Origin: the human T2T-CHM13v2.0 reference genome, Homo sapiens
Direction: 5' to 3'
Assembly (NCBI GenBank): GCA_009914755.4
Contig: CP086569.2
Span: 11,808,001 to 11,872,000, forward strand
DNA length: 64,000 nucleotides
Under the pieces are notes generated by a model. That model worked only from the letters and a program-made list of their open reading frames with translations. It was not told where the DNA came from and did no database searches. The translations under genes and the position numbers were made by a program. The first letter of the stretch is position 1. Every line of letters begins with the position of its first letter. Shown here piece by piece: positions 4,281 to 42,800 of the stretch.

Positions 4281-4310
4281 GAAAGGAATGGCCTCGAGCG
4301 GAATTTATTT
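4281..4310. other. Conserved island with GGCC plus the CTCGAG (XhoI) site and the haplotype-diagnostic CpG variant cgagCGg versus cgagTGg.
   Basis: Copies 1-7 read aatggcctcgagcggaatttatttg. Copies 8-11 read aatggcctcgagtggaatttatttg, for example at 44091-44110. Confidence 0.75.
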
Positions 4311-5607
4311 GAATAGAATGGAATCAAATGGAATACAATACCATTGAATGGAATCGAATGGAATGGAATCGAATGGAATGGAATCAAATGGAATGGAACG
4401 GAATTCAATATAATGGAGTAGAATGGAATGCATTGGAAAGGAGCAGAGTGGAATCAAGTGGAATGGAATCGAGTGGAATGGAATCGAGTGGAATGGAATC
4501 AATGGGAACAAAATCGAATTGAATGGACTTGAATGGAATTGACTCGAAAGGAATTGACTCGAAAGGAATGGACTGGAACAAAAAGGAATCAAATGGACAG
4601 GAATGGGATGGAATGGACACGAATGGAATGGAGTCAAATGCAAACGCATCGAATGGAATGGATTGAAATGGAATGCAATGGAATGGAACAGAAAGGAAGA
4701 GAATGGAATTGAGAGTAATGGAAAGATATCGATTGGAATGAAATGGAATGGAAAGGAATTGAATGGAAAGGAATGGAGTGGAAAGAAATGGATTGGAATG
4801 GAATGGTCTCCAATGGAATGGACTGGAGTGGAATGGAATCGAATGGAATGAAAAGAATGGAACGGAATGGAACGGAAAGGAATAGAATGTTATGGAATCC
4901 GATTGGACAGAATGGAATGGAATGGACTTTCATGAAATGGAGTCGAATAGAGTGTCATCAAAAGGAATGGAATGGAATGGAGTGGACTCAAAAGGAATGG
5001 ACTCGAAAGGAATGGAGTCGAACCAAATTGAATCAAATGGATTGGAGTCGAACAGAATGGAATGGAATGAAATGTACTCGACTGGAGTAGAGAGGAATGT
5101 AAAGGAATAGAATGGAATGTAATCAAATGGATTGCAAGTGAATGGAATCAAAAATAATAGAAAGGAATGGAGTGTAAAGGGATGATATTGAATATAATGG
5201 AATGGAATGGAATTTAATGGAATGGAGACGAAGGAATGGACAGGAATGTAATGGACTCCAATGGAATGGAATGGATCAAAATGGATTTGAACAGATTGGA
5301 ATCGAACGGAATGGAATGCAACGGCATGGAATGGACTCGAATGGAGAAGAGACAAATGGAATGGAAACGAATTCAATGGAATTGAAAAGAATAGGATGGA
5401 ATGGCGTGTAATGGTAAGATACTAAATGGAATGGAATTGAATGGAATGGAATGGACCCAAATGTAATGCACTCGAAAGGAATATACTCAAATAGAATGGA
5501 ATCGAAAGGAAAGGTCTCAAATGGAATTTATTCAATACAATGGAATCGAATGGAATGCAATAGAATGGAATGGAATCGAATGTAATGGAATCAAATAGAA
5601 TGGACCA

Positions 5608-19800: not shown

Positions 19801-22433
19801 GGCATAGAATGGAATGGAATGGAATGGAATGGAATGGAATGGAATGGAACGGAATTGAATGTCATGGAATGGAATGGCATGGCATGGAATGGAATGGAAT
19901 GGAATGGAATGAAATGGATTGGAATGGGATGGGCCCAAAAGTAATAGACTCAAATAAAAGGGACTCAAAGAGAATGAAGTGGAAAGAAACGGTCTCGAAT
20001 GTAATTTATTCGAATAGAATGATATTGAATGGAATGCAATAGTATGGAATGGTATCGAATAGAATGGAATAGAATGGAATGGAATGGAACGGAATGGAGT
20101 GCAATTGAACGGACTCAAATGCAATAAATTGCAATATAATTGATTCAAATGGAATGGAATCGAATAGAATGTAAACAAATGGAATGGAAGGCAATGCAAT
20201 GGAAAGGAATCGAATGAAATGGAATAAATGGAATGGAATGGAATGGAAAGGACGCGAATATATTGGACTGTTAAGGAAAGGTGTCAAATCGAATTTATTC
20301 CAATAGAATGGAATCGAATGGAATGCAATACTATTGAATCGAATCGAATGGAATGGAATTGAATGGAATGGACAGGAATGGAATGAACTGGAAGTGAATG
20401 GACAGGAACGTAATATATTGCAATGTAATTTATTCAAATGGAATGGAATGCAATCGAATGGAATGGACTCGATTGGAATGGACTGGAGTGGAATGGATTC
20501 AAATGGAATGGCAAGGAATGGAATGGAATGGAATGGAAAGCAAAGGAATCTACTGGAATAGAATCGAACGGAACAGAAAGGAATGGAATGGAATGGAGTG
20601 GAATGGACTCGAATGGAATGTATTCGAATGTAATGGACCTAAAAAGGAATGGAATCCAATGGAATGGAATTGAATGGAATCAAAAGGAATAGAAAGGCAT
20701 CGAGTGTAATTGAATGATATCGAAAGGAAGGGAATGGAATGAACTCGAATGGAATGCACTGGAATGGAATGGACTCGATCAGAACGGACTGGAGAGGAAT
20801 GTACACAAATGGAATGGAAACGAATGGAATGGAATGAAATGGAATGGAATGAAATGGAATTGAAAGGAAGGGAATCAAATGGAATGGAATGGAATGGATT
20901 GGAATAGAATGGATTCAAATAAAATAGAATCGATGGGAATGGTATTGAATGAAAGGGACTTGAATGGAATGGAAAGCAATGGAAGATATTGGAATCGAAT
21001 GGCATCGAATGAAATGGAATGGAACGGAATGGAACGGAACCGAATGGAATGGAATGGACTCAAATGTAATGGACACCAATGGAATCGACTGAAATATAAT
21101 AGTGTCGAAAGGAATGGCCTCGAGCGGAATTTATTTGAATAGAATGGAATCAAATGGAATACAATACCATTGAATGGAATCGAATGGAATGGAATCGAAT
21201 GGAATGGAATCAAATGGAATGGAACGGAATTCAATATAATGGAGTAGAATGGAATGCATTGGAAAGGAGCAGAGTGGAATCAAGTGGAATGGAATCGAGT
21301 GGAATGGAATCGAGTGGAATGGAATCAATGGGAACAAAATCGAATTGAATGGACTTGAATGGAATTGACTCGAAAGGAATTGACTCGAAAGGAATGGACT
21401 GGAACAAAAAGGAATCAAATGGACAGGAATGGGATGGAATGGACACGAATGGAATGGAGTCAAATGCAAACGCATCGAATGGAATGGATTGAAATGGAAT
21501 GCAATGGAATGGAACAGAAAGGAAGAGAATGGAATTGAGAGTAATGGAAAGATATCGATTGGAATGAAATGGAATGGAAATGCATTGAATGGAAAGGAAT
21601 GGAGTGGAAAGAAATGGATTGGAATGGAATGGTCTCCAATGGAATGGACTGGAGTGGAATGGAATCGAATGGAATGAAAAGAATGGAACGGAATGGAACG
21701 GAAAGGAATAGAATGTTATGGAATCCGATTGGACAGAATGGAATGGAATGGACTTTCATGAAATGGAGTCGAATAGAGTGTCATCAAAAGGAATGGAATG
21801 GAATGGAGTGGACTCAAAAGGAATGGACTCGAAAGGAATGGAGTCCAACCAAATTGAATCAAATGGATTGGAGTCGAACAGAATGGAATGGAATGAAATG
21901 TACTCGACTGGAGTAGAGAGGAATGTAAAGGAATAGAATGGAATGTAATCAAATGGATTGCAAGTGAATGGAATCAAAAATAATAGAAAGGAATGGAGTG
22001 TAAAGGGATGATATTGAATATAATGGAATGGAATGGAATTTAATGGAATGGAGACGAAGGAATGGACAGGAATGTAATGGACTCCAATGGAATGGAATGG
22101 ATCAAAATGGATTTGAACAGATTGGAATCGAACGGAATGGAATGCAACGGCATGGAATGGACTCGAATGGAGAAGAGACAAATGGAATGGAAACGAATTC
22201 AATGGAATTGAAAAGAATAGGATGGAATGGCGTGTAATGGTAAGATACTAAATGGAATGGAATTGAATGGAATGGAATGGACCCAAATGTAATGCACTCG
22301 AAAGGAATATACTCAAATAGAACGGAATCGAAAGGAAAGGTCTCAAATGGAATTTATTCAATACAATGGAATCGAATGGAATGCAATAGAATGGAATGGA
22401 ATCGAATGTAATGGAATCAAATAGAATGGACCA
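16827..22433. repeat. HOR copy 4, 5607 bp, variant B, near-identical to copy 2.
   Basis: The proteins at 16885..17670 (261 aa), 18255..18566 (MHSIPFHS) and 18439..18711 (QKERKRMEF) are identical to those of copy 2. Copy 4 lies 11219 bp from copy 2. Confidence 0.85.
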
Positions 22434-25400
22434 GTATGGAATGGACTGCCATAGAACGGACTGCAGTGTAATGGATTGAATTCTAATTCATTCAAATGGA
22501 ATGGAATTGAATGGAATGGAATCCAATGGAATGGATAGGATTGTACTGGAATGGAATAGCATGGAATGCAACGGAGTGGAATGGAGTTGAATGAAGTGGA
22601 ATGGAATCGATTGGAATGGAATCAAATGGAATGGACGGGAATGGAATGGACTGGAAGAGAACAGACTCGAATTTAATGGATTGCAATGTAATTGATTCAA
22701 AGGGAATGGAATCGAATGGAATGTAATAAAATTGAAGGGATTTGAGTTCAATGCAATGGAATAGAATGGAATGCAAAGGAAAGGAAAGGTACGGAGTGAA
22801 ATCGAGTGTAATGGAATCGAATGGAATGAAATGGAATGGAATGGACTCAAAAGAAATGGACGAGGGACAAAACGGAATCGAACTGATTGGAATCGAACGG
22901 AACGGAATGGAATGGAATGGTCTCCATTGGATCGGAGTAGAACGGACTGGAATGGAATGGAATGAAATGGAATGGAAAGGAATAGAATGGAATGGAATGG
23001 AATGGAATGGAATGGAAGGTAATGGAAAGATATCGAACGGATTGGAAAGGAATGGAATGGACCCTAATGGAATGGAATGGAATTCAACAGAAACGAATGG
23101 AATGGACTGGAGTGAAATGGAGTCGAATGTAATTGACTGGAGTGAAATGGACTCGAAAGGAATGGACTCGAATAGAATGGACTGGAATGGATTGTACTCG
23201 AATGGAGTGGAAAGGAATAAAATGGATTGCACCAGATTGGAATGGAACAGAATGTAATGGAATGGAATGGAATGCAATGGAATGGCTCCAATGGAATGGA
23301 GTCGAATGCAATGGAACAGAAAGGAAAGGAATTGAATGGAATTGAAAGTAATAGAACAAAATGGAGTGCAAAGGAAAGATATTGAATGGAATGAATCGAA
23401 AAGAAATCGAATGGAATGGACAAGAATGGAATGGAATAGAATGGAATAGACTGGCGTGCAATGAAAACGAATGGAATGGAAACGAATTTAATGCAATGGA
23501 AAGGAATGGAGTAGAATAAATACTATGGAATGGAATGGAGGCGAAAGGAAAAGAATGGATTGGAATGTCACCGAATGGAAAGATATGGAATGGAAAGGAA
23601 TGGATACGAATGGAATGGAATAGAAAGGAACGGAAAGGTAAAGAATGGAATGGAATCGGATAGAATGGAATGCAATGTAATGGAGTCGAATGGAAAATAA
23701 TCGTGTAGAATGATATCGAATGGAATGGAATGGAATGGAATGGACTCGAATGGAATGTACTCAAATGGATTAGAATAGAATGGAATGGAACTAAACGTAA
23801 TGAACTCGAATGGAATGGACACAAATAGAATGGAAGAGAAAGGAATGGTATTGAATGGAATTTATTCGAATAGAGTGGAATTCAATGGAATGCAACAGTG
23901 TGGCATGGAATCAAATGGAATGGAATCGAATGGAATGGACCCGAGTGGAATGGACTCACATAGAACAGCCTCGAATGTAATGGATGACAATGTATTAGAT
24001 TCGAAAGGACTGAAATCGAATGGAATGTAATCAAGTAGAACGGAATTGAATGCATGGAATGGCATAGAAAGTAACGCAATGGAATGGAATAGACTGGAAT
24101 GGAATGGAATCGGATGGAATGTAATGAAATGTAATGGAAGGAATGCCATGGAATGGAATGGAATGGAATGCAATGGGACGGTGTATAATGGAGTGCAATG
24201 GATTTCAGTGGAATGTAGTCAAAAGGAAAGAAAGAGAATGGAATTCAATATAATGGAATGGCATCCAATGGCAAGGAATGGAGCGGACTCCAATGGAAAC
24301 GACATGAAAGGAATATAATAAAATGGAATGGCATTGAACGAAATGGAATGTAATGGAGTTAAAAGGTAAAATATCGAATGGAAAAGAATTGAATGGACTC
24401 GAAAGGAATATAATGGAATGGAATGGACTCGAATGGAATGTACTAGAGTTGAATGGAATCGAATGGAATGGAAAACAATGGAAAGGAAAGGAAGGGAATT
24501 GAAAGGAAAGGAATAGAATGGAATGGAATCGGATGGAACGGAATTGAATGGAATGGAAACTAAAGGAATAGAATAGAAAGGAATCGCATTGAATGGAATG
24601 GAATAGAATGGAATCAGATGGAACAGAAAGGAATGGAATAGAATCGAATGGAATGGCATCGAATGGATGGAATGAAATGTAATGGAATGGAATAGAAAGG
24701 AATGGAATGGACTCGAATGGAATGTACTCAAATGGAATAGAATAGAATGGAATGGAAGTAAATATAATGGACTCGAATAGAATGCATTGGAATAAATTGG
24801 AATTGAGTGTATTGGATTCGAATGGAAAGGAATGGAATGGAATGGAATGGAATGGAATGGAATGGAATGGATTCGAATGGAATGGAATCGAATGGAATGG
24901 AACGAATTGGAATGTAATTGAATGGAGTCAAAAACAGTAGAAAGAAATAAAGTTTCATCGAAAGATATCGAATGGAATTGAATGGAATGTACGCGAATGG
25001 AATGGACTGTAATGGAATGGAGTGACATGTAACGGAATCGAAAGGAATGGAATCCAATGAAATGGAATTGAATGGAATAGAAATGAATAGAATGGAATGG
25101 AGATTAACGGAAAGATATTAAAATAATGGAATGGAATTGAGTGGACACGAATGGAATGGACTGGAATGGAAAGGACTCAAATGAAAACGAGCGCATTAGA
25201 ATGGACTCGAATGGAATGGATTGGAGTGGAATGGTCTCGAATGGATTGGAAAGGAATGGAATGGAAAGGAATAGAATGGAATGTAATCAAATGGAACGAA
25301 ATGGAATGGAATGGATTCGACTGGAGCAGAATTGAATGGAGTGGATTTGAATGGAATGGAATGCAATCGAATGGAATGGACACGAATCGAATAGAATGAA

Positions 25401-28040
25401 ATGAAATGGCATAGAATGGAATGGAATGGAATGGAATGGAATGGAATGGAATGGAACGGAATTGAATGTCATGGAATGGAATGGCATGGCATGGAATGGA
25501 ATGGAATGGAATGGAATGAAATGGATTGGAATGGGATGGGCCCAAAAGTAATAGACTCAAATAAAAGGGACTCAAAGAGAATGAAGTGGAAAGAAACGGT
25601 CTCGAATGTAATTTATTCGAATAGAATGATATTGAATGGAATGCAATAGTATGGAATGGTATCGAATAGAATGGAATAGAATGGAATGGAATGGAACGGA
25701 ATGGAGTGCAATTGAACGGACTCAAATGCAATAAATTGCAATATAATTGATTCAAATGGAATGGAATCGAATAGAATGTAAACAAATGGAATGGAAGGCA
25801 ATGCAATGGAAAGGAATCGAATGAAATGGAATAAATGGAATGGAATGGAATGGAAAGGACGCGAATATATTGGACTGTTAAGGAAAGGTGTCAAATCGAA
25901 TTTATTCCAATAGAATGGAATCGAATGGAATGCAATACTATTGAATCGAATCGAATGGAATGGAATTGAATGGAATGGACAGGAATGGAATGAACTGGAA
26001 GTGAATGGACAGGAACGTAATATATTGCAATGTAATTTATTCAAATGGAATGGAATGCAATCGAATGGAATGGACTCGATTGGAATGGACTGGAGTGGAA
26101 TGGATTCAAATGGAATGGCAAGGAATGGAATGGAATGGAATGGAAAGCAAAGGAATCTACTGGAATAGAATCGAACGGAACAGAAAGGAATGGAATGGAA
26201 TGGAGTGGAATGGACTCGAATGGAATGTATTCGAATGTAATGGACCTAAAAAGGAATGGAATCCAATGGAATGGAATTGAATGGAATCAAAAGGAATAGA
26301 AAGGCATCGAGTGTAATTGAATGATATCGAAAGGAAGGGAATGGAATGAACTCGAATGGAATGCACTGGAATGGAATGGACTCGATCAGAACGGACTGGA
26401 GAGGAATGTACACAAATGGAATGGAAACGAATGGAATGGAATGAAATGGAATGGAATGAAATGGAATTGAAAGGAAGGGAATCAAATGGAATGGAATGGA
26501 ATGGATTGGAATAGAATGGATTCAAATAAAATAGAATCGATGGGAATGGTATTGAATGAAAGGGACTTGAATGGAATGGAAAGCAATGGAAGATATTGGA
26601 ATCGAATGGCATCGAATGAAATGGAATGGAACGGAATGGAACGGAACCGAATGGAATGGAATGGACTCAAATGTAATGGACACCAATGGAATCGACTGAA
26701 ATATAATAGTGTCGAAAGGAATGGCCTCGAGCGGAATTTATTTGAATAGAATGGAATCAAATGGAATACAATACCATTGAATGGAATCGAATGGAATGGA
26801 ATCGAATGGAATGGAATCAAATGGAATGGAACGGAATTCAATATAATGGAGTAGAATGGAATGCATTGGAAAGGAGCAGAGTGGAATCAAGTGGAATGGA
26901 ATCGAGTGGAATGGAATCGAGTGGAATGGAATCAATGGGAACAAAATCGAATTGAATGGACTTGAATGGAATTGACTCGAAAGGAATTGACTCGAAAGGA
27001 ATGGACTGGAACAAAAAGGAATCAAATGGACAGGAATGGGATGGAATGGACACGAATGGAATGGAGTCAAATGCAAACGCATCGAATGGAATGGATTGAA
27101 ATGGAATGCAATGGAATGGAACAGAAAGGAAGAGAATGGAATTGAGAGTAATGGAAAGATATCGATTGGAATGAAATGGAATGGAAATGCATTGAATGGA
27201 AAGGAATGGAGTGGAAAGAAATGGATTGGAATGGAATGGTCTCCAATGGAATGGACTGGAGTGGAATGGAATCGAATGGAATGAAAAGAATGGAACGGAA
27301 TGGAACGGAAAGGAATAGAATGTTATGGAATCCGATTGGACAGAATGGAATGGAATGGACTTTCATGAAATGGAGTCGAATAGAGTGTCATCAAAAGGAA
27401 TGGAATGGAATGGAGTGGACTCAAAAGGAATGGACTCGAAAGGAATGGAGTCCAACCAAATTGAATCAAATGGATTGGAGTCGAACAGAATGGAATGGAA
27501 TGAAATGTACTCGACTGGAGTAGAGAGGAATGTAAAGGAATAGAATGGAATGTAATCAAATGGATTGCAAGTGAATGGAATCAAAAATAATAGAAAGGAA
27601 TGGAGTGTAAAGGGATGATATTGAATATAATGGAATGGAATGGAATTTAATGGAATGGAGACGAAGGAATGGACAGGAATGTAATGGACTCCAATGGAAT
27701 GGAATGGATCAAAATGGATTTGAACAGATTGGAATCGAACGGAATGGAATGCAACGGCATGGAATGGACTCGAATGGAGAAGAGACAAATGGAATGGAAA
27801 CGAATTCAATGGAATTGAAAAGAATAGGATGGAATGGCGTGTAATGGTAAGATACTAAATGGAATGGAATTGAATGGAATGGAATGGACCCAAATGTAAT
27901 GCACTCGAAAGGAATATACTCAAATAGAACGGAATCGAAAGGAAAGGTCTCAAATGGAATTTATTCAATACAATGGAATCGAATGGAATGCAATAGAATG
28001 GAATGGAATCGAATGTAATGGAATCAAATAGAATGGACCA
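22434..28040. repeat. HOR copy 5, 5607 bp, B-like with private variants (variant C).
   Basis: It carries the B-type markers MHSIPFHS and QKERKRMEF. New variants appear, for example MTGVKWTRKEW at 23133, where other copies have MTGVEWTRKEW, and the 246-aa ORF at 23084..23824. A CpG is gained at actcGaatgg at about 23197, where copies 1-4 read actcAaatgg. Confidence 0.8.
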
Positions 28041-31000
28041 GTATGGAATGGACTGCCATAGAACGGACTGCAGTGTAATGGATTGAATTCTAATTCATTC
28101 AAATGGAATGGAATTGAATGGAATGGAATCCAATGGAATGGATAGGATTGTACTGGAATGGAATAGCATGGAATGCAACGGAGTGGAATGGAGTTGAATG
28201 AAGTGGAATGGAATCGATTGGAATGGAATCAAATGGAATGGACGGGAATGGAATGGACTGGAAGAGAACAGACTCGAATTTAATGGATTGCAATGTAATT
28301 GATTCAAAGGGAATGGAATCGAATGGAATGTAATAAAATTGAAGGGATTTGAGTTCAATGCAATGGAATAGAATGGAATGCAAAGGAAAGGAAAGGTACG
28401 GAGTGAAATCGAGTGTAATGGAATCGAATGGAATGAAATGGAATGGAATGGACTCAAAAGAAATGGACGAGGGACAAAACGGAATCGAACTGATTGGAAT
28501 CGAACGGAACGGAATGGAATGGAATGGTCTCCATTGGATCGGAGTAGAACGGACTGGAATGGAATGGAATGAAATGGAATGGAAAGGAATAGAATGGAAT
28601 GGAATGGAATGGAATGGAATGGAAGGTAATGGAAAGATATCGAACGGATTGGAAAGGAATGGAATGGACCCTAATGGAATGGAATGGAATTCAACAGAAA
28701 CGAATGGAATGGACTGGAGTGCAATGGAGTCGAATGTAATTGACTGGAGTGAAATGGACTCGAAAGGAATGGACTCGAATAGAATGGACTGGAATGGATT
28801 GTACTCGAATGGAGTGGAAAGGAATAAAATGGATTGCACCAGATTGGAATGGAACAGAATGTAATGGAATGGAATGGAATGCAATGGAATGGCTCCAATG
28901 GAATGGAGTCGAATGCAATGGAACAGAAAGGAAAGGAATTGAATGGAATTGAAAGTAATAGAACAAAATGGAGTGCAAAGGAAAGATATTGAATGGAATG
29001 AATCGAAAAGAAATCGAATGGAATGGACAAGAATGGAATGGAATAGAATGGAATAGACTGGCGTGCAATGAAAACGAATGGAATGGAAACGAATTTAATG
29101 CAATGGAAAGGAATGGAGTAGAATAAATACTATGGAATGGAATGGAGGCGAAAGGAAAAGAATGGATTGGAATGTCACCGAATGGAAAGATATGGAATGG
29201 AAAGGAATGGATACGAATGGAATGGAATAGAAAGGAACGGAAAGGTAAAGAATGGAATGGAATCGGATAGAATGGAATGCAATGTAATGGAGTCGAATGG
29301 AAAATAATCGTGTAGAATGATATCGAATGGAATGGAATGGAATGGAATGGACTCGAATGGAATGTACTCAAATGGATTAGAATAGAATGGAATGGAACTA
29401 AACGTAATGAACTCGAATGGAATGGACACAAATAGAATGGAAGAGAAAGGAATGGTATTGAATGGAATTTATTCGAATAGAGTGGAATTCAATGGAATGC
29501 AACAGTGTGGCATGGAATCAAATGGAATGGAATCGAATGGAATGGACCCGAGTGGAATGGACTCACATAGAACAGCCTCGAATGTAATGGATGACAATGT
29601 ATTAGATTCGAAAGGACTGAAATCGAATGGAATGTAATCAAGTAGAACGGAATTGAATGCATGGAATGGCATAGAAAGTAACGCAATGGAATGGAATAGA
29701 CTGGAATGGAATGGAATCGGATGGAATGTAATGAAATGTAATGGAAGGAATGCCATGGAATGGAATGGAATGGAATGCAATGGGACGGTGTATAATGGAG
29801 TGCAATGGATTTCAGTGGAATGTAGTCAAAAGGAAAGAAAGAGAATGGAATTCAATATAATGGAATGGCATCCAATGGCAAGGAATGGAGCGGACTCCAA
29901 TGGAAACGACATGAAAGGAATATAATAAAATGGAATGGTATTGAACGAAATGGAATGTAATGGAGTTAAAAGGTAAAATATCGAATGGAAAAGAATTGAA
30001 TGGACTCGAAAGGAATATAATGGAATGGAATGGACTCGAATGGAATGTACTAGAGTTGAATGGAATCGAATGGAATGGAAAACAATGGAAAGGAAAGGAA
30101 GGGAATTGAAAGGAAAGGAATAGAATGGAATGGAATCGGATGGAACGGAATTGAATGGAATGGAAACTAAAGGAATAGAATAGAAAGGAATCGCATTGAA
30201 TGGAATGGAATAGAATGGAATCAGATGGAACAGAAAGGAATGGAATAGAATCGAATGGAATGGCATCGAATGGATGGAATGAAATGGAATGGAATAGAAA
30301 GGAATGGAATGGACTCGAATGGAACGTACTCAAATGGAATAGAATAGAATGGAATGGAAGTAAATATAATGGACTCGAATGGAATGCATTGGAATAAATT
30401 GGAATTGAGTGTATTGGATTCGAATGGAAACGAATGGAATGGAATGGAATGGAATGGAATGGAATGGAATGGATTCGAATGGAATGGAATCGAATGGAAT
30501 GGAACGAATTTGAATGTAATTGAATGGAGTCAAAAACAGTAGAAATAAATAAAGATTCATCGAATGATATCGAATGGAATTGAATGGAATGTACGCGAAT
30601 GGAATGGACTGGAATGGAATGGAGTGACATGTAACGGAATCGAAAGGAATGGAATCCAATGAAATGGAATTGAATGGAATAGAAATGAATAGAATGGAAT
30701 GGAGATTAATGGAAAGATATTAAAATAATGGAATGGAATTGAGTGGACACGAATGGAATGGACTGGAATGGAAAGGACTCGAATGAAATGCAGTGCATTA
30801 GAATGGACTCGAATGGAATGGATTGGAGTGGAATGGTCTCGAATGGATTAGAAAGGAATGGAATGGAAAGGAATAGAATGGAATGTAATCAAATGGAACG
30901 AAATGGAATGGAATGGATTCGACTGGAGCAGAATTGAATGGAGTGGAATTGAATGGAATGGAATGCAATCGAATGGAATGGACACGAATCAAATAGAATG

Positions 31001-34000
31001 AAATGAAATTGCAAAGAATGGAATGGAATGGAATGGAATGGCATGGAATGGAATGTAACGGAATGGAATGGCATGGAATGGAATGGCATGGCATGGAATG
31101 GAATGGAATGGAATGGAATGGAATGGAATGGATTCGAATGGAATGGAATCGAATGGAATGGAACGAATTGGAATGTAATTGAATGGAGTCAAAAACAGTA
31201 GAAAGAAATAAAGTTTCATCGAATGATATCGAATGGAATTGAATGGAATGTACGCGAATGGAATGGACTGGAATGGAATGGAGTGACATGTAACGGAATC
31301 GAAAGGAATGGAATCCAATGAAATGGAATTGAATGGAATAGAAATGAATAGAATGGAATGGAGATTAATGGAAAGATATTAAAATAATGGAATGGAATTG
31401 AGTGGACACGAATGGAATGGACTGGAATGGAAAGGACTCGAATGAAATGGAGCGCATTAGAATGGACTCGAATGGAATGGATTGGAGTGGAATGGTCTCG
31501 AATGGATTGGAAAGGAATGGAATGGAAAGGAATAGAATGGAATGTAATCAAATGGAACGAAATGGAATGGAATGGATTCGACTGGAGCAGAATTGAATGG
31601 AGTGGAATTGAATGGAATGGAATGCAATCGAATGGAATGGACACGAATCGAATAGAATGAACTGAAATGGCATAGAATGGAATGGAATGGAATGGAATGG
31701 AATGGAATGGAATGGAATGGAATGGAATGGCATGGAATGGAATGGAATGGCATGGCATGGCATGGAATGGAATGGAATGAAATGGATTGGAATGAGATGG
31801 GCCCAAGAGTAATAGACTCAAATAAAAGGGACTCAAATAGAATGAAGTGGAAAGAAACGGTCTCGAATGTAATTTATTCGAATAGAATGATATTGAATGG
31901 AATGCAATAGTATGGAATGGTATCGAATAGAATGGAATGGAATGGAACGGAATGGAACGGAATGGAGTGCAATTGAACGGACTCAAATGCAATAAATTGC
32001 AATATAATTGATTCAAATGGAATGGAATCGAATAGAATGTAAACAAATGGAATGGAAGGCAATGCAATGGAAAGGAATCGAATGAAGTGGAATAAATGGA
32101 ATGGAATGGAATGGAAAGGACGCGAATATATTGGACTGTTAAGGGAAGGTGTCAAATCGAATTAATTCCAATAGAATGGAATCGAATGGAATGCAATACT
32201 ATTGAATCGAATCGAATGGAATGGAATTGAATGGAATGGACAGGAATGGAATGAACCGGAAGTGAATGGACAGGAACGTAATATATTGCAATGTAATTTA
32301 TTCAAATGGAATGGAATGCAATCGAATGGAATGGACTGGAGTGGAATGGACTCAAATGGAATGGCAAGGAATGTAATGGAATGGAATGGAAAGCAAAGGA
32401 ATCTACTGGAATAGAATCGAACGGAACAGAAAGGAATGGAATGGAATGGAGTGGAATGGACTCGAATGGAATGTATTCGAATGTAATGGACCTAAAAAGG
32501 AATGGAATCCAATGGAATGGAATTGAATGGAATCAAAAGGAATAGAAAGGAATAGAGTGTAATTGAATGATATCGAAAGGAAGGGAATGGAATGAACTCG
32601 AATGCAATGCACTGGAATGGAATGGACTCGATCAGAACGGACTGGAGAGGAATGTACACAAATGGAATGGAAACGAATGGAATGGAATGAAATGGAATGG
32701 AATGAAATGGAATTGAAAGGAACGGAATCAAATGGAATGGAATGGAATGGAATGGATTGGAATAGAATGGATTCAAATAAAATAGAATCGATGGGAATGG
32801 TATTGAATGAAAGGGACTTGAATGGAATGGAAAGCAATGGAAGATATTGGAATCGAATGGCATCGAATGAAATGGAATGGAACGGAATGGAACGGAACCG
32901 AATGGAATGGAATGGACTCAAATGTGATGGACACCAATGGAATCGACTGAAATATAATAGTGTCGAAAGGAATGGCCTCGAGCGGAATTTATTTGAATAG
33001 AATGGAATCAAATGGAATACAACACCATTGAATGGAATCGAATGGAATGGAATGGAATGGAATGGAATCAAATGGAATGGAACGGAATTCAATATAATGG
33101 AGTAGAATGGAATGCATTAGAAAGGAGCAGAGTGGAATCAAGAGGAATGGAATCGAGTGGAATGGAATCAATGGGAACAAAATCGAATTGAATGGACTTG
33201 AATGGAATTGAATCGAAAGGAATGGACTGGAACAAAAAGGAATCAAATGGACAGGAATGGGATGGAATGGACACGAACGGAATGGAGTCAAATGCAAACG
33301 CATCGAATGGAATGGATTGAAATGGAATGCAATGGAATGGAACAGAAAGGAAGAGAATGGAATTCAGAGTAATGGAAAGATATCGATTGGAATGAAATGG
33401 AATGGAAAGGAATTGAATGGAAAGGAATGGAGTGGAAAGAAATGGATTGGAAAGGAATGGTCTCCAATGGAATGGACTAGAGTGGAATGGAATCGAATGG
33501 AATGAAAAGAATGGAACGGAATGGAACGGAAAGGAATAGAATGTTATGGAATCCGATTGGACAGAATGGAATGGAATGGAGTTTCATGAAATGGAGTCGA
33601 ATAGAGTGGCATCAAAAGGAATGGAATGGAATGGAGTGGACTCAAAAGGAATGGACTCGAAAGGAATGGAGTCGAACCAAACTGATTCAAATGGATTGAA
33701 GTCGAACAGAATGGAATGGAATGGAATGAACTCGACTGGAGTAGAGAGGAATGTAAAGGAATAGAATGGAATGTAATCAAATGGATTGCAAGTGAATGGA
33801 ATCAAAAATAATAGAAAGGAATGGAGTGTAAAGGGATGATATTGAATATAATGGAATGGAATGGAATTTAATGGAATGGAGACGAAGGAATGGACAGGAA
33901 TGTAATGGACTCCAATGGAATGGAATGGATCAAAATGGATTTGAACAGATTGGAATCGAACGGAATGGAATGCAATGGAATGGAATGGACTCGAATGGAG

Positions 34001-34261
34001 AAGAGACAAATGGAATGGAAACGAATTCAATGGAATTGAAAAGAATAGGATGGAATGGCGTGTAATGGTAAGATACTAAATGGAATGGAATTGAATGGAA
34101 TGTAATGGACCCAAATTTAATGCACTCGAAAGGAATATACTCAAATAGAATGGAATCGAAAGGAAAGGTCTCAAATGGAATTTATTCAATACAATGGAAT
34201 CGAATGGAATGCAATAGAATGGAATGGAATCGAATATAATGGAATCAAATAGAATGGACCA
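28041..34261. repeat. HOR copy 6, 6221 bp, C-like in its 5' part and resembling the downstream haplotype in its 3' part. It contains a 660-bp internal duplication.
   Basis: The 5' part matches copy 5 (246-aa ORF at 28691..29431). From about 30.4 kb onward it shares variants with copies 7-12: NEMERIR rather than NENERIR at 31402..31596, ARNVMEW at 32202..32414, and the CpG gain ggaaCGtact at about 30322. The extra length comes from the duplication listed separately. Confidence 0.8.
30471..31790. repeat. Internal tandem duplication inside HOR copy 6. Copy 1 is about 30471-31130 and copy 2 about 31131-31790, that is 2 x about 660 bp.
   Basis: The string attcgaatggaatggaatcgaatggaatggaacgaatt...gtcaaaaacagtagaaa...tacgcgaatggaatggactggaatggaatggagtgacatgtaacgg...taaaataatggaatggaattgagtggacacgaatgg occurs at 30471 and again at 31131. 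The track shows the MDTNGMDWNGKDSNE... ORF twice, at 30743 and 31402, 659 bp apart. Both breakpoints sit in pure (GGAATGG)n runs at 30431-30470 and 31091-31130. Confidence 0.85.
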
Positions 34262-37200
34262 GAATGGAATGGACTGCCATAGAACGGACTGCAGTGTAAT
34301 GGATTGAATTCTAAATCATTCAAATGGAATGGAATTGAATGGAATGGAATCCAATGGAATGGATAGGATTGTACTGGAATGGAATAGCATGGAATGCAAC
34401 GGAGTGGAATGGAGTTGAATGAAGTGGCATGGAATCGATTGGAATGGAATCAAATGGAATGGACGGGAATGGAATGGACTGGAAGAGAACAGACTGGAAT
34501 TTAATGGATTGCACTGTAATTGATTCAAATGGAATGGAATCGAATGGAATGTAATAAAATTGAAGGGATTTGAGTTCAATGCAATGGAATAGAATGGAAT
34601 GCAAAGGAAAGGAAAGGTACGGAGTGAAATCGAGTGTAATGGAATCGAATGGAATGAAATGGAATGGAATGGACACAAAAGAAATGGACGAGGGACAAAA
34701 CGGAATCGAACTGATTGGAATCGAACGGAACGGAATGGAATGGAATGGTCTCCATTGGATCAGAGTAGAACGGACTGGAATGGAATGGAATGAAATGGAA
34801 TGGAAAGGAATAGAATGGAATGGAATGGAATGGAATGGAATGGAATGGAAGGTAATGGAAAGATATTGAACCGATTGGAAAGGAATGGAATGGACTCTAA
34901 TGGAATGGAATGGAATTCAACAGAAACGAATGGAATGGACTGGAGTGAAATGGAGTCGAATGTAATTGACTGGAGTGGAATGGACTCGAAAGGAATGGAC
35001 TCGAATAGAATGGACTGGAATGGATTGTACTCGATGGAGTGAAAAGGAATAAAATGGATTCCACCAGATTGGAATGGAACAGAATGTAATGGAATGGAAT
35101 GGAATGCAATGGAATAGCTCCAATGGAATGGAGTCGAATGTAATGGAACAGAAAGGAAAGGAAGTGAATGGAATTGAAAGGAATAGAACAAAATGGAGTG
35201 CAAAGGAAAGATATCGAATGGAATGGATCGAAAAGAAATCGAATGGAATGGACAGGAATGGAATGGAATAGAATGGAATAGACTGGCGTGCAATGAAAAC
35301 GAATGGAATGGAAACGAATGGAATGCAATGGAAAGGAATGGAGTAGAATAAATACTATGGAATGGAATGGAGGCGAAAGGAAAAGAATGGATTGGAATGT
35401 CACCGAATGGAAAGATATGGAATGGAAAGGAATGGATACGAATGGAATGGAATAGAAAGGAACGGAAAGGTAAAGAATGGAATGGAATCAGATAGAATGG
35501 AATGCAATGTAATGGAGTCGAATGGAAAATAATCGTGTAGAATGATATCGAATGGAATGGAATTGAATGGAATGGAATGGAATGGACTCGAATGGAATGT
35601 ACTCAAATGGATTAGAATAGAATGGAATGGAACTAAACGTAATGAACTCGAATGGAATGGACACAAATAGAATGGAAGAGAAAGGAATGGTATTGAATGG
35701 AATTTATTCGAATAGAGTGGAATTCAATGGAATGCAACAGTGTGGCATGGAATCAAATGGAATGGAATCGAATGGAATGGACCCGAGTGGAATGGACTCA
35801 CATAGAACAGCCTCGAATGTAATGGATGACAATGTATTAGATTCGAAAGGACTGAAATCGAATGGAATGTAATCAAGTAGAACGGAATTGAATGCATGGA
35901 ATGGCATAGAAAGTAACGCAATGGAATGGAATAGACTGGAATGGAATGGAATCGGATGGAATGTAATGAAATGTAATGGAAGGAATGCCATGGAATGGAA
36001 TGGAATGGAATGCAATGGGACGGTGTATAATGGAGTGCAATGGATTTCAGTGGAATGTAGTCAAAAGGAAAGAAATAGAATGGAATTCAATATAATGGAA
36101 TGGCATCCAATGGCAAGGAATGGAGCGGACTCCAATGGAAACGACATGAAAGGAATATAATATAATGGAATGGCATTGAACGAAATGGAATGCAATGGAG
36201 TTAAAAGGTAAAATATCGAATGGAAAAGAATTGAATGGACTCGAAAGGAATATAATGGAATGGAATGGACTCGAATGGAATGTACTAGAGTTGAATGGAA
36301 TCGAATGGAATGGAAAACAATGGAAAGGAAAGGAAGGGAATTGAAAGGAAAGGAATAGAATGGAATGGAATCGGATGGAACGGAATTGAATGGAATGGAA
36401 ACTAAAGGAATAGAATAGAAAGGAATCGCATTGAATGGAATGGAATGGAATGGAATCAGATGGAACGGAAAGGAATGGAATAGAATCGAATGGAATGGCA
36501 TCGAATGGATGGAATGGAATGTAATGGAATGGAATAGAAAGGAATGGAATGGACTCGAATGGAATGTACTCAAATGGAATAGAGTAGAATGGAATGGAAG
36601 TAAATATAATGGACTCGAATGGAATGCATTGGAATAAATTGGAATTGAGTGTATTGGATTCGAATGGAAAGGAATGGAATGGAATGGAATGGAAAGGAAT
36701 GGAATGGAATGGATTCGAATGGAATGGAATCGAATGGAATGGAACGAATTGGAATGTAATTGAATGGAATCAAAAACAGTAGAAAGAAATAAAGTTTCAT
36801 CGAATGATATCGAATGGAATTGAATGGAATGTACGCGAATGGAATGGATTGGAATGGAATGGAGTGACATGTAACGGAATCGAAAGGAATGGAATCCAAT
36901 GAAATGGAATTGAATGGAATAGAAATGAATAGAATGGAATGGAGATTAATGGAAAGATATTAAAATAATGGAATGGAATTGAGTGGACACGAATGGAATG
37001 GACTGGAATGGAAAGGACTCGAATGAAATGGAGCGCATTAGAATGGACTCGAATGGAATGGATTGGAGTGGAATGGTCTCGAATGGATTTGAAAGGAATG
37101 GAATGGAAAGGAATAGAATGGAATGTAATCAAATGGAACGAAATGGAATGGAATGGATTCGACTGGAGCAGAATTGAATGGAGTGGAATTGAATGGAATG

Positions 37201-39814
37201 GAATGCAATCGAATGGAATGGACACGAATCGAATAGAATGAAATGAAATGGCATAGAATGGAATGGAATGGAATGGAATGGAATGGAATGGAATGGAATG
37301 GCATGGAATGGAATGACATGGCATGGAATGGAATAGAATGAAATGGATTGGAATGTGATGGGCCCAAAAGTAATAGACTCAAATAAAAGGGACTCAAATA
37401 GAATGAACTGGAAAGAAACGGTCTCGAATGTAATTTATTCGAATAGAATGATATTGAATGGAATGCAACAGTATGGAATGGTATCGAATAGAATGGAATA
37501 GAATGGAATGGAATGGAACGGAATGGAGTGCAATTGAACGGACTCAAATGCAATAAATTGCAATATAATTCATTCAAATAGAACGGAATCGAATAGAATG
37601 TAAACAAATGGAATGGAAGGCAATGCAATGGAAAGGAATCGAATGAAATGGAATAAATGGAATGGAATGGAATGGAAAGGACGCGAATATATTGGACTGT
37701 TAAGGAAAGGTGTCAAATCGACTTTATTCCAATAGAATGGAATCGAATGGAATGCAATACTATTGAATCGAATCGAATGGAATGGAATTGAATGGAATGG
37801 ACAGGAATGGAATGAATTGGAAGTGAATGGACAGGAACGTAATATATTGCAAAGTAATTTATTCAAATGGAATGGAATGCAATCGAATGGAATGGACTCG
37901 ATTGGAATGGACTGGAGTGGAATGGACTCAAATGGAATGGCAAGGAATGTAATGGAATGGAATGGAAAACAAAGGAATCTACTGGAATAGAATCGAACGG
38001 AACAGAAAGGAATGGAATGGAATGGAGTGGAATGGACTCGAATGGAATGTATTCGAATGTAATGGACCTAAAAAGGAATGGAATCCAATGGAATGGAATT
38101 GAATGGAATCAAAAGGAATAGAAAGGAATAGAGTGTAATTGAATATCGAAAGGAAGGGAATGGAATGAACTCGAATGGAATGCGCTGGAATGGAATGGAC
38201 TCGATCAGAACGGACTGGATAGGAATGTCCACAAATGGAATGAAAACGAATGGAATGGAATGAAATGGAATTGAAAGGAACGGAATCAAATGGAATGGAA
38301 TGGAATGGAATGGATTGGAATAGAATGGATACAAATAAAATAGAATCGATGGGAATGGTATTGAATGAAAGGGACTTGAATGGAATGGAAAGCAATGGAA
38401 GATATTGGAATCGAATGGCATCCAATGAAATGGAATGGAACGGAATCGAATGGAATGGAATGGACTCAAATGTAATGGACACCAATGGATTCGACTGAAA
38501 TATAATAGTGTCGAAAGGAATGGCCTCGAGCGGAATTTATTTGAATAGAATGGAATAAAATGGAATACAATACCATTGAATGGAATCGAATGGAATGGAA
38601 TCGAATGGAATGTAATCAAATGGAATGGAACGGAATTCAATACAATGGAGTAGAATGGAATGCATTGGAAAGGAGCAGAGTGGAATCAAGTGGAATGGAA
38701 TCGAGTGGAATGGAATCAATGGGAACAAAATCAAATTGAATGGACTTGAATGGAATTGACTCGAAAGGAATGGTCTGGAAAAAAAAGGAATCAAATGGAC
38801 AGGAATGGGATGGAATGGACATGAATGGAATGGAGTAAAATGCAAACGCATCGAATGGAATGGATTGAAATGGAATGCAATGGAATGGAACAGAAAGGAA
38901 GAGAATGGAATTGAGAGTAATGGAAAGATATCGATTGGAATGAAATGGAATGGAAAGGAATTGAATGGAAAGGAATGGAGTGGAAAGAAATGGATTGGAA
39001 TGGAATGGTCTCCAATGGAATGGACTGGAGTGGAATGGAAACGAATGGAATGAAAAGAATGGAACGGAATGGAACGGAAAGGAATAGAATGTTATGGAAT
39101 CCGATTGGACAGAATGGAATGGAATGGAGTTTCATGAAATGGAGTCGAATAGAGTGGCATCAAAAGGAATGGAATGGAATGGAGTGGACTCAAAAGGAAT
39201 GGACTCGAAAGGAATGGAGTCCAACAAAACTGATTCAAATGGATTGAAGTCGAACAGAATGGAATGGAATGGAATGGAATGAACTCGACTGGAGTAGAGA
39301 GGAATGTAAAGGAATAGAATGGAATGTAATCAAATGGATTGCAAGTGAATGGAATCAAAAATAATAGAAAGGAATGGAGTGTAAAGGGATGATATTGAAT
39401 ATAATGGAATGGAATGGAATTTAATGGAATGGAGACGAAGGAATGGACAGGAATGTAATGGACTCCAATGGAATGGAATGGATCAAAATGGATTTGAACA
39501 GATTGGAATCGAACGGAATGGAATGCAATGGAATGGAATGGACTCGAATGGAGAAGAGACAAATGGAATGGAAACGAATTCAATGGAATTGAAAAGAATA
39601 GGATGGAATGGCGTGTAATGGTAAGATACTAAGTGGAATGGAATTGAATGGAATGTAATGGACCCAAATGTAATGCACTCGAAAGGAATATACTCAAATA
39701 GAATGGAATCGAAAGGAAAGGTCTCAAATGGAATTTATTCAATACAATGGAATCGAATGGAATGCAATAGAATGGAATGGAATCGAATGTAATGGAATCA
39801 AATAGAATGGACCA
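34262..39814. repeat. HOR copy 7, 5553 bp, first copy of the second domain. It is its own variant, related to D and E.
   Basis: The anchor reads accagaatggaatggactgcc...ttctaaatcattc, differing from accagtatgg...ttctaattcattc in domain 1. The ATAAT seed is ataatataat at about 36147-36160, that is 2 perfect copies. Confidence 0.8.
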
Positions 39815-42800
39815 GAATGGAATGGACTGCCATAGAACGGACTGCAGTGTAATGGATTGAATTCTAATTCATTCAAATGGAATGGAATTGAATGGAATGG
39901 AATCCAATGGAATGGATAGGATTGTACTGGAATGGAATAGCATGGAATGCAACGGAGTGGAATGGAGTTGAATGAAGTGGAATGGAATCGATTGGAATGG
40001 AATCAAATGGAATGGACGGGAATGGAATGGACTGGAAGAGAACAGACTGGAATTTAATGGATTGCACTGTAATTGATTCAAATGGAATGGAATCGAATGG
40101 AATGTAATAAAATTGAAGGGATTTGAGTTCAATGCAATGGAATAGAATGGAATGCAAAGGAAAGGAAAGGTACGGAGTGAAATCGAGTGTAATGGAATCG
40201 AATGGAATGAAATGGAATGGAATGGACTCAAAAGAAATGGACGAGGGACAAAACGGAATCGAACTGATTGGAATCGAACGGAACGGAATGGAATGGAATG
40301 GTCTCCATTGGATCGGAGTAGAACGGACTGGAATGGAATGGAATGAAATGGAATGGAAAGGAATAGAATGGAATGGAATGGAATGGAATGGAATGGAAGG
40401 TAATGGAAAGATATCGAACGGATTGGAAAGGAATGGAATGCACCCTAATGGAATGGAATGGAATTCAACAGAAACGAATGGAATGGACTGGAGTGAAATG
40501 GAGTCGAATGTAATTGACTGGAGTGGAATGGACTCGAAAGGAATGGACTCGAATAGAATGGACTGGAATGGATTGTACTCGAATGGAGTGGAATGGAATA
40601 AAATGGATTCCACCAGATTGGAATGGAACAGAATGTAATGGAATGGAATGGAATGCAACGGAATAGCTCCAATGGAATGGAGTCGAATGCAATGGAACAG
40701 AAAGGAAAGGAATTGAATGGAATTGAAAGGAATAGAACAAAATGGAGTGCAAAGGAAAGATATCGAATGGAATGGATCGAAAAGAAATCGAATGGAATGG
40801 ACAGGAATGGAATGGAATAGAATGGAATAGACTGGCGTGCAATGAAAACGAATGGAATGGAAACGAATGGAATGCAATGGAAAGGAATGGAGTAGAATAA
40901 ATACTATGGAATGGAATGGAGGCGAAAGGAAAAGAATGGATTGGAATGTCACCGAATGGAAAGATATGGAATGGAAAGGAATGGATACGAATGGAATGGA
41001 ATAGAAAGGAACGGAAAGGTAAAGAATGGAATGGAATCGGATAGAATGGAATGCAATGTAATGGAGTCGAATGGAAAATAATCGTGTAGAATGATATCGA
41101 ATGGAATGGAATTGAATGGAATGGAATGGAATGGACTCGAATGGAATGTACTCAAATGGATTAGAATAGAATGGAATGGAATTAAACGTAATGAACTCGA
41201 ATGGAATGGACACAATTAGAATGGAAGAGAAAGGAATGGTATTGAATGGAATTTATTCGAATAGAGTGGAATTGAATGGAATGCAACAGTGTGGCATGGA
41301 ATCAAATGGAATGGAATCGAATGGAATGGACCCGAGTGGAATGGACTCACATAGAACAGCCTCGAATGTAATGGATGACAATGTATTAGATTCGAAAGGA
41401 CTGAAATCGAATGGAATGTAATCAAGTAGAACGGAATTGAATGCATGGAATGGCATGGAAAGTAACGCAATGGAATGGAATAGACTGGAATGGAATGGAA
41501 TCGGATGGAATGTAATGAAATGTAATGGAAGGAATGCCATGGAATGGAATGGAATGGAATGCAATGGGACGGTGTATAATGGAGTGCAATGGATTTCAGT
41601 GGAATGTAGTCAAAAGGAAAGAAATAGAATGGAATTCAATATAATGGAATGGCATCCAATGGCAAGGAATGGAGCGGACTCCAATGGAAACGACATGAAA
41701 GGAATATAATATAATGGAATGGCATTGAACGAAATGGAACGCAATGGAGTTAAAAGGTAAAATATCGAATGGAAAAGAATTGAATGGACTCGAAAGGAAT
41801 ATAATGGAATGGAATGGACTCGAATGGAATGTACTAGAGTTGAATGGAATCGAATGGAATGGAAAACAATGGAAAGGAAAGGAAAGGAATTGAAAGGAAA
41901 GGAATAGAATGGAATGGAATCGGATGGAACGGAATTGAATGGAATGGAAACTACAGGAATAGAATAGAAAGGAATCGCATTGAATGGAATGGAATGGAAT
42001 GGAATCAGATGGAACAGAAAGGAATGGAATAGAATCGAATGGAATGGCATCGAATGGATGGAATGGAATGGAATGGAATGGAATAGAAAGGAATGGAATG
42101 GACTCGAATGGAATGTACTCAAATGGAATAGAATAGAATGGAATGGAAGTAAATATAATGGACTCGAATGGAATGCATTGGAATAAATTGGAATTGAGTG
42201 TATTGGATTCGAATGGAAAGGAATGGAATGGAATGGAATGGAATGGAATGGAATGGAATGGATTCGAATGGAATGGAATCGAATGGAATGGAACGAATTG
42301 GAATGTAATTGAATGGAGTCAAAAACAGTAGAAAAAAATAAAGTTTCATCGAATGATATCGAATGGAATTGAATAGAATGTACGCGAATGGAATGGACTG
42401 GAATGGAATGGAGTGACATGTAACGGAATCGAAAGGAATGGAATCCAATGAAATGGAATTGAATGGAATAGAAATGAATAGAATGGAATGGAGATTAATG
42501 GAAAGATATTAAAATAATGGAATGGAATTGAGTGGACACGAATGGAATGGACTGGAATGGAAAGGACTCGAATGAAATGGAGCGCATTAGCATGGACTCG
42601 AATGGAATGGATTGGAGTGGAATGGTCTCGAATGGATTGGAATGGAATGGAATGGAAAGGAATAGAATGGAATGTAATCAAATGGAACGAAATGGAATGG
42701 AATGGATTCGACTGGAGCAGAATTGAATGGAGTGCAATTGAATGGAATGGAATGCAATCGAATGGAATGGACACGAATCGAATAGAATGAAATGAAATGG

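What the first reader, a model, noticed from the sequence alone, without database searches (positions are those of the whole stretch)
30431..31790. A 660-bp intra-HOR tandem duplication whose breakpoints lie in pure (GGAAT)n tracts
Copy 6 is 6221 bp long where other copies are about 5.6 kb. The extra sequence is a direct repeat of the segment running from the (GGAATGG)n attcgaatgg junction to the ggcatggcatgg(aatgg)n run. Both junctions fall inside perfect pentamer runs that sit about 660 bp apart in a normal HOR. This points to misaligned exchange between two pure-pentamer tracts. The two duplicated copies already differ (NEMQCIR versus NEMERIR, aaagattcat versus aaagtttcat), so they were either not duplicated very recently or the duplication joined two haplotypes. 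The duplication also lies at the domain switch.
Basis: seen in the sequence. Interest (0 to 1): 0.55.

Follow-up and report, generated by a model that had tools for sequence, protein, structure and literature searches.

The report
659-bp duplication inside a pentamer-satellite repeat unit
One 5.6-kb unit of a (GGAAT)n-type satellite array really does carry an extra 659-bp tandem copy joined inside a perfect (AATGG)7 run, which is an ordinary product of misaligned exchange or template switching in satellite DNA.

Summary
The window is one uninterrupted (GGAAT)n-derived satellite with a roughly 5.6-kb multi-kilobase unit in 11 full copies. Copy 6 alone carries a tandem duplication. Its period is 659 bp, not 660. 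Copy A is 30473-31131 and copy B is 31132-31790. They differ by 18 substitutions and no indels. The homologous block proper is 687 bp with 16 differences (97.7%), against a background identity of 37% at that offset. The single new junction is a perfect (AATGG)7 run at 31097-31131. It joins the right-tract context (CATGGCATGG) to the left-tract context (ATTCGAATGG). Perfect homology at the junction is at most 35 bp, so this is short-homology exchange or template switching rather than classical long-homology crossing-over.

The "domain switch" is also real. Copies 0-5 differ by 0-0.7% and copies 6-11 by 1-2%. The young domain ends at 30282/30283, about 150 bp upstream of the left tract. Copy A plus 190 bp upstream forms a 0.85-kb orphan fragment of a third lineage. 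Polarised differences are 9 derived in A to 1 in B (p=0.02). This favours a join of two different repeat copies over in-place duplication followed by drift. A simple misjoin of the two domains does not fit, but no reads were available. This is a known kind of event and of low interest.

The parts
1..30282 (+). Upstream domain D1: copies 0-5 of the ~5.6-kb unit. It is very homogeneous (0.0-0.7% pairwise) and has an 11.2-kb dimeric substructure.
   Evidence: Pairwise divergence matrix. The last D1-specific allele is at 30282. Copies 4 and 5 differ at only 2 sites over 5.35 kb up to this point.
30283..30432 (+). Upstream part of the orphan fragment X. Against copy 4 it has 3 differences in 150 bp: a 5-bp deletion at 30283, 30325 C and 30381 G. 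A fourth difference, 30431 C, sits at the edge of the left tract.
   Evidence: The copy 4 against copy 5 difference list is clustered at 30283-30511. The private alleles are listed.
30433..30472 (+). Normal left pure tract, (AATGG)8, followed by ATTCGAATGG. It is the left boundary of duplicate copy A.
   Evidence: Tract census. The homologous tract has 3-10 units in the other copies.
30473..31131 (+). Duplicate copy A (659 bp). It is D2-like at the diagnostic sites. It also has 8 private substitutions in the 539-bp core and a unique arrangement of CATGG/AATGT/AACGG units in its 3' part.
31097..31131 (+). The only novel junction: a perfect (AATGG)7 run. It is preceded by CATGGCATGG (right-tract context) and followed by ATTCGAATGG (left-tract context). 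The pentamer phase is continuous across it.
   Evidence: The pattern is unique in the window at 31085-31156 and occurs in none of 100 shuffles.
31132..31790 (+). Duplicate copy B (659 bp). It is continuous with the rest of copy 6, has 1 private substitution in the core, and is closest to copy 7 (4 differences in 539 bp).
31766..31775 (+). Normal right pure tract of copy B, (AATGG)2 after CATGGCATGGCATGG. It is followed by the normal downstream sequence AATGAAATGGATTGG...GGGCCCAA.
31791..64000 (+). Downstream domain D2: the rest of copy 6 and copies 7-11. It is more heterogeneous (1-2% pairwise). Copies 8 and 10 are near twins, as are copies 9 and 11.

Best explanation
This is a real 659-bp intra-unit tandem duplication in a pentameric (GGAAT)n-derived classical satellite of HSat3 type, whose unit is a ~5.6-kb nested tandem repeat.

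Proposed origin. The short pure (AATGG)n tract at the right end of the segment in one repeat copy (lineage X) paired with the pure (AATGG)n tract at the left end of the same segment in a different copy (copy 6). They paired out of register by 659 bp plus a whole number of repeat units. A strand exchange or a replication or repair template switch within that tract, at most 35 bp long, then joined them. The segment between the two tracts is therefore present twice, once from each parent.

Later history. The young upstream family D1 expanded by ordinary in-register unequal exchange up to a point about 150 bp left of the duplication. This overwrote the rest of X and left a 0.85-kb orphan at 30283-31131. 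Alternatively, both changes happened in one multi-switch repair event.

Shown: the duplication, the junction anatomy, the lineage assignments and the asymmetry of derived changes. Inferred: the molecular pathway, the order of events, and human origin.
For: Duplication and its significance.

Junction. It lies in a perfect (AATGG)7 run with right-tract context on its left and left-tract context on its right. The pentamer phase is preserved, and homology at offset 659 extends 28 bp beyond the period (687 against 659 bp). Blunt non-homologous joining would not give this.

Chance. Only 3.8% of a unit lies in pure tracts of 4 or more units, so both ends would fall in such tracts by chance with p=0.0015. 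With a threshold of 2 or more units the figures are 21% and p=0.044.

Two parents.
- A and B differ by 9 of 539 bp in the core, which matches the 1-2% between unrelated D2 units.
- Ten differences can be polarised. Nine are derived in A and one in B (p=0.021).
- A's 3' unit arrangement is unlike any other copy.
- Private variants continue 190 bp upstream of A, as expected if A and its left flank come from one parent.

Slippage background. 23 of the 26 other indels among copies are multiples of 5 bp.

Literature. HSat2/3 multi-kb units vary in period locally (bioRxiv 10.1101/2021.07.12.452052). HSat3 arrays show patterns consistent with unequal exchange (bioRxiv 10.1101/2022.12.01.518724).
Against: - No read-level or second-assembly evidence exists for the junction. 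It was not found in the genome or viral collections, and the two related metagenome contigs show only the normal arrangement.
- The exchange used a short right tract (1-4 units today) rather than the longer middle tract 80 bp upstream (8-15 units), so tract length alone does not explain the site.
- The 9:1 asymmetry could also arise if B was later homogenised by gene conversion with its neighbours.
- The one other finely mapped exchange point in the window (22323-22387) contains no pure tract of 4 or more units, so no general tract hotspot is shown.
- The tracts have no canonical hairpin potential.
Confidence: 0.72

Rival explanations
1. In-place duplication of a single copy, by replication slippage or an exchange between identical sister chromatids. 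The two initially identical copies then diverged by mutation.
For: The junction anatomy is the same as in the preferred model. All A/B differences are substitutions, and 3 of the 16 are at CpG sites. Both copies carry D2-type diagnostic alleles.
Against: Derived changes are 9 in A against 1 in B, where equal rates are expected (p=0.021). The 1.7-2.3% divergence would make the event as old as the D2 copies themselves, yet no other copy in the window carries the duplication. A's private-variant cluster continues 190 bp upstream of the duplicated segment, which in-place duplication does not predict.
Confidence: 0.16
2. Assembly artefact. This would be a false tandem duplication created by a misjoin or by placing two haplotypes or near-identical repeats in series at the boundary of two array domains.
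For: The odd unit sits within about 200 bp of an abrupt change in array homogeneity, which is where assemblers are most stressed. No independent sequence confirms the junction.
Against: A misjoin of the D1 and D2 blocks would make copy A D1-like. In fact A differs from D1 copies at 15-17 of 539 core positions and carries D2 alleles from 30565 on. A and B differ at 16 sites spread over the segment, and A has private markers within 10-75 bp of the junction. Reads spanning the junction are therefore distinguishable. The differences are all substitutions, with none of the indels typical of read error. The 35-bp pentamer run is much shorter than long-read overlaps (inference).
Confidence: 0.08
3. 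A single complex replication-based repair event (MMBIR/FoSTeS-like). A broken D1-type end invaded an X-type copy in register near 30283 and copied about 0.85 kb. It then switched template through (AATGG)n microhomology to the left tract of copy 6. Domain boundary, orphan fragment and duplication would all arise at once.
For: Two lineage switches lie only 0.85 kb apart, D1|X at 30282/30283 and X|copy 6 at 31097-31131, in a 64-kb window with no other such pair. A private 5-bp deletion sits exactly at the first switch. The second switch has short perfect homology.
Against: This is a sub-case of the preferred explanation and cannot be separated from two independent events with one haplotype. Under independence, the chance that one boundary falls within about 0.5 kb of the duplication is only roughly 1-2% (my estimate from the window length). 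That figure is suggestive, but it was chosen after seeing the data.
Confidence: 0.2

Closest known systems
Human classical satellite 3 (HSat3) nested tandem repeats, for example the ~3.6-kb DYZ1 unit
   Same: Derived from the pentamer (CATTC/GGAAT)n. All strong short periodicities are multiples of 5. The unit is a multi-kb repeat that is not built of discrete monomers. Period and homogeneity change locally along the array, as described for HSat2/3 arrays and DYZ1.
   Different: The unit here is ~5.6 kb with an 11.2-kb dimeric layer. I found no paper in the held library that pairs HSat3 with a 5.6-kb unit. The CAACCCGA(A/G)T decamer, which I recall as typical of some satellite III sequences, is absent. 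Subfamily and chromosome could not be assigned with these tools.
Structural variants of alpha-satellite higher-order repeats (monomer insertions and deletions by unequal exchange)
   Same: One unit of a homogeneous multi-kb array carries an internal duplication whose ends lie in mutually similar sub-repeats. It sits near a boundary between a young homogeneous block and older, more diverged units (the layered-expansion picture).
   Different: There is no 171-bp monomer frame. In alpha satellite the exchange is between full monomers that are 70-90% alike. Here the exchange is between two short perfect pentamer runs of at most 35 bp.
Microhomology or short-homology-mediated tandem duplication (FoSTeS/MMBIR, SSA-like events, replication slippage)
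   Same: Head-to-tail duplication. The junction lies in a short stretch of perfect identity, with no filler bases. There is a possible second template switch 0.85 kb away.
   Different: The pathway is inferred from junction anatomy only. The surrounding satellite is 60-75% similar in the exchange register, so a recombination intermediate tolerant of mismatches cannot be excluded.

Membership tests
HSat3-type pentameric classical satellite | Derived from (GGAAT/CATTC)n, with short-range periodicity in multiples of 5 bp | tested here: met
   TRF reports periods of 10, 15 and 35 over the whole window. The 25 best self-offsets are all multiples of 5. Exact GGAAT covers 31% of bases.
HSat3-type pentameric classical satellite | Subfamily-specific 24-mers or chromosomal assignment (Altemose 2014 scheme) | not testable with these tools
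   No human reference or HSat2/3 k-mer library is available. The only external matches are two metagenome contigs, 99-100% identical to D1 units over 1.4 and 3.4 kb.
HSat3-type pentameric classical satellite | Interspersed CAACCCGA(A/G)T decamer (recalled from the classical satellite III description; not universal) | tested here: not met
   No occurrences on either strand.
HSat2 | 23/26-bp composite period (two decamers plus one or two trimers) | tested here: not met
   Offsets 23, 26 and 49 are not among the best offsets, which are all multiples of 5.
Higher-order repeat in the alpha-satellite sense | Unit built from a whole number of discrete, similar-length monomers | tested here: not met
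   There is no sub-period between 5-35 bp and 5.6 kb. 'Nested tandem repeat' is the published term for such units.
Tandem duplication by homology-guided misalignment | Novel junction lies in sequence shared by both ends of the duplicated segment, with no inserted bases | tested here: met
   A perfect (AATGG)7 run lies at 31097-31131. The homology block is 687 bp against a period of 659 bp.
Classical NAHR / unequal crossing-over | Long (hundreds of bp) near-identical homology at the exchange point | tested here: not met
   Perfect identity is at most 35 bp. Flanks in the exchange register are only 58-76% identical.
Classical NAHR / unequal crossing-over | Reciprocal deletion product (a unit lacking the 659-bp segment) | tested here: not met
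   Every full unit in the window carries the marker that lies inside the segment. This does not exclude such a unit elsewhere in the array or in the population.
Assembly false duplication | Read coverage or clipping anomaly at the junction, or the two copies corresponding to two haplotypes | not testable with these tools
   No reads are available. Indirect evidence argues against a D1/D2 overlap misjoin.

The most novel reading that the evidence does not exclude
The D1|X switch at 30283 and the X|copy-6 microhomology junction at 31097-31131 are footprints of one multi-template-switch repair event at a fragile pure (AATGG)n tract. On this reading, such tracts are recurrent sites where new unit lengths are born and where local expansions of HSat3-type arrays stop.
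Probability: 0.12. Interest if true: 0.4.

Novelty: new member of a known kind. Interest (0 to 1): 0.17.

Why it matters
It is a cleanly resolved example of how a multi-kilobase satellite unit changes length. A short perfect pentamer run served as the joining point between two non-identical repeat copies, next to the edge of a recently expanded block. That is useful as an illustration, and as a unique marker (the junction and copy A's private variants) for anchoring reads in an otherwise monotonous array. It does not change what is understood about satellite evolution.

Tried and rejected
- Rfam scan of the whole window: no family reached its threshold.
- ORF and peptide reading. The pentamer repeat is stop-free in several frames, so long mechanical ORFs exist on both strands. 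I did not treat them as coding.
- Independent copies of the junction: none in genome contigs or viral contigs. The marker search found nothing in genome contigs or viral contigs. It found two metagenome contigs. Both carry only the normal D1-type arrangement and become mosaic after 1.4 and 3.4 kb. They say nothing about the duplication.
- Literature search for a 5.6-kb HSat3 unit: no paper. Altemose 2014 gave no period table. The published Science version of the T2T centromere paper is not held, so I used the preprint.
- Pure tracts as general exchange hotspots. The only other finely mapped switch (22323-22387, and 27930-27994 in copy 5) contains no tract of 4 or more units. I rejected this idea as unsupported.
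- Hairpin potential of the tracts with DNA parameters: none on either strand, with z-scores between -0.3 and +0.6. The non-canonical G·A structures reported for (AATGG)n cannot be modelled here.
- Ancient paralogy between the two tract regions. Identity of the flanks at the exchange offset is 58-76%, which is the ordinary in-phase satellite background. I rejected this.
- Transition/transversion bias of the A/B differences (4:12). This is not clearly different from the array-wide 94:117. Five of the transversions are AATGG/CATGG unit swaps rather than independent point changes.
Full report
**What the window is**

All 64 kb is one uninterrupted, single-orientation (GGAAT)n-derived satellite.
- GC content is 0.36-0.39 and GC skew about +0.58 throughout.
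- Tandem Repeats Finder reports periods of 10, 15 and 35 bp over positions 62-63973.
- The 25 best short self-offsets are all multiples of 5. This fits the pentameric HSat3 type and not the 23/26-bp HSat2 type (description).
- A long period of about 5.6 kb dominates the 24-mer spacing histogram: 5607, 5602, 5617, 5580 and so on.
- A unique marker recurs at 2501, 8113, 13720, 19322, 24929, 30531, 31190, 36771, 42320, 47910, 53460 and 58985.
- There is no intermediate monomer period. The unit is therefore what the T2T centromere study calls a nested tandem repeat rather than a true HOR.
- Rfam finds nothing. The long mechanical ORFs are a by-product of a stop-free pentamer.

**The observation**

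The marker spacing of 659 bp (30531 to 31190) occurs only in copy 6. In the best register, 30473-31131 aligns to 31132-31790 with 18 substitutions and no gap.

The true homologous block at offset 659 is 30434-31120. It is 687 bp long with 16 substitutions (97.7%). Median identity at that offset elsewhere is 0.37.

**Junction anatomy**

In a normal unit the segment is bounded on each side by a pure tract.
- On the left is ...GGATTCGAATGGAAAGG(AATGG)n ATTCGAATGG..., with n = 3-10.
- On the right is ...CATGGCATGG(AATGG)n AATGAAATGGATTGG...GGGCCCAA, with n = 4 in copies 1-5 and 1-2 in copies 6B-11.

In copy 6 the sequence CATGGCATGG(AATGG)7ATTCGAATGG appears once, at 31085-31156. It occurs in none of 100 shuffles. 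The single novel junction therefore lies somewhere in the perfect 35-bp run at 31097-31131. The pentamer phase is continuous and there are no filler bases.

Homology at the duplication offset extends 28 bp beyond the period. That is the signature of a homology-guided join.

Pure tracts of 4 or more units occupy 3.8% of a unit, so both ends would fall in them by chance with p=0.0015. With the laxer threshold of 2 or more units the figures are 21% and p=0.044.

The perfect homology available was short, at most 35 bp and probably 10-20 bp. The flanks in that register are only 58-76% identical. I therefore read the event as short-homology or microhomology-mediated exchange or template switching, not classical long-homology unequal crossing-over. 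The pathway itself is inferred, not shown.

The tracts have no canonical hairpin potential. The non-canonical structures reported for (AATGG)n, which I recall from the literature, could not be tested.

**Domains**

Pairwise divergence of aligned units splits the window in two.
- Copies 0-5 differ by 0.00-0.72%. Copy 0 is identical to copy 2, copy 1 is close to copy 3, and copy 4 is close to copy 5.
- Copies 6-11 differ by 1-2%. Copies 8 and 10 are near twins (0.29%), as are copies 9 and 11 (0.50%).

Copies 4 and 5 are the same hybrid of the two D1 subtypes, with a switch at 22323-22387 and 27930-27994. This is the expected product of ordinary in-register unequal exchange followed by duplication.

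Copies 4 and 5 differ at only two sites (28722 and 29939) over 5.35 kb. They then differ five times between 30283 and 30511. The last D1-specific allele is at 30282. The D1 lineage therefore ends at 30282/30283, about 150 bp upstream of the left tract.

**Who the two duplicate copies are**

In the unambiguous 539-bp core, both A and B carry the downstream-type alleles at all six D1/D2 diagnostic sites. The first of these is at 30565.

B has one private substitution and is 4 differences from copy 7. A has eight private substitutions. A is 9 differences from B, 10-14 from the other indel-free D2 copies (7, 8 and 10), and 15-17 from D1 copies.

A's 3' part has a unit arrangement seen in no other copy: (AATGG)5 CATGG AATGG AATGTAACGG (AATGG)2 CATGG (AATGG)2 CATGGCATGG. 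It has elements reminiscent of both D1 and D2 forms.

Ten differences can be polarised against the other copies. Nine are derived in A and one in B (binomial p=0.021).

The density of private variants in 30283-31131 is at the high end of what the twin-less copies 6 and 7 show, which is 4-5 per 850 bp with a maximum of 9-14.

Together these results describe a 0.85-kb orphan fragment X (30283-31131) of a third lineage. It lies between the D1 block and copy 6.

**Best explanation**

The right tract of an X-type unit was joined to the left tract of copy 6 by a misaligned, short-homology event. The segment is therefore present once from each parent. The young D1 family later expanded up to 30282 and overwrote the rest of X. 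Alternatively, both switches arose in one multi-template-switch repair event. The two switches are only 0.85 kb apart, which is suggestive, but the argument was made after seeing the data.

The background supports a slippage-prone context. 23 of the 26 other indels among units are multiples of 5 bp. The next largest events are a 95-bp deletion and (AATAT)n expansions of 30-35 bp.

**Rivals**

- In-place duplication followed by drift is disfavoured by three things: the 9:1 asymmetry, the private variants that continue upstream of A, and the absence of the duplication from all other units.
- An assembly misjoin of the D1 and D2 blocks would make A D1-like, and it is not. The A/B differences are all substitutions spread across the segment. 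Without reads, however, an artefact cannot be excluded.

**Related sequence elsewhere**

The marker was absent from the prokaryotic genome and viral collections. It hit two public metagenome contigs. These are 99-100% identical to D1-type units over 1.4 kb (L001) and 3.4 kb (L002), then drop to about 67%. I take them to be host-DNA contamination assembled into mosaic contigs. That also suggests a human source, which is an inference. L001 shows the normal, unduplicated arrangement. The junction string was found nowhere else.

**Comparison with the known, and verdict**

Local changes of unit length and layered local expansions in HSat2/3 and alpha-satellite arrays are described in the literature. 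Unequal-exchange signatures in HSat3 arrays are described too. This is one more instance of that kind, with a nicely resolved junction. Novelty and interest are low.

Noticed in passing
window 1-30282 and 42320-64000: There is an 11.2-kb dimeric super-period on both sides. Copy 0 equals copy 2 (0.00%) and copy 1 is close to copy 3 (0.14%). Copy 8 is close to copy 10 (0.29%) and copy 9 to copy 11 (0.50%). The k-mer spacing peaks at 11075-11224 reflect this.
   Followed up: partly
window 22323-22387 and 27930-27994: Copies 4 and 5 are identical hybrids: subtype-a head and subtype-b tail. The switch lies in the same 64-bp interval in both, which indicates an in-register unequal exchange followed by duplication of the hybrid unit. 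The interval contains no pure pentamer tract of 4 or more units.
   Followed up: yes
window 47293-47337 and 58368-58417: (AATAT)9 and (AATAT)10 microsatellite tracts are present only in copies 8 and 10. They replace more complex sequence found in the other units.
   Followed up: no
window after 55641 (homologous segment 50052-50146 in copy 9): Copy 10 has a private 95-bp deletion. It is the second-largest structural difference among units. Its ends are in imperfect GGAAT-like sequence, not in a long pure tract.
   Followed up: partly
L001 (OONO01000167.1) and L002 (OOQC01000272.1): These public metagenome contigs contain this satellite unit at 99-100% identity for 1.4 and 3.4 kb. They then switch abruptly to satellite that is about 67% similar. 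In L002 the switch is right after CATGG AATGG in the right-tract region. They are probably host contamination assembled into chimeric contigs.
   Followed up: partly
whole window: Substitutions among units are rich in transversions: 94 transitions against 117 transversions at biallelic sites, with G>T and T>A common. This is unusual compared with the roughly 2:1 ratio typical of mammalian unique sequence, which I cite from general knowledge.
   Followed up: no
window 31790-31870 and homologous positions (GGGCCCAA at 3105, 8722..., 59579): Directly after the right tract in every unit there is a short non-pentameric island, GATGGGCCCAAAAGTAATAGACTCAAATAAAAGGGACTCAAA. Its origin was not examined.
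   Followed up: no
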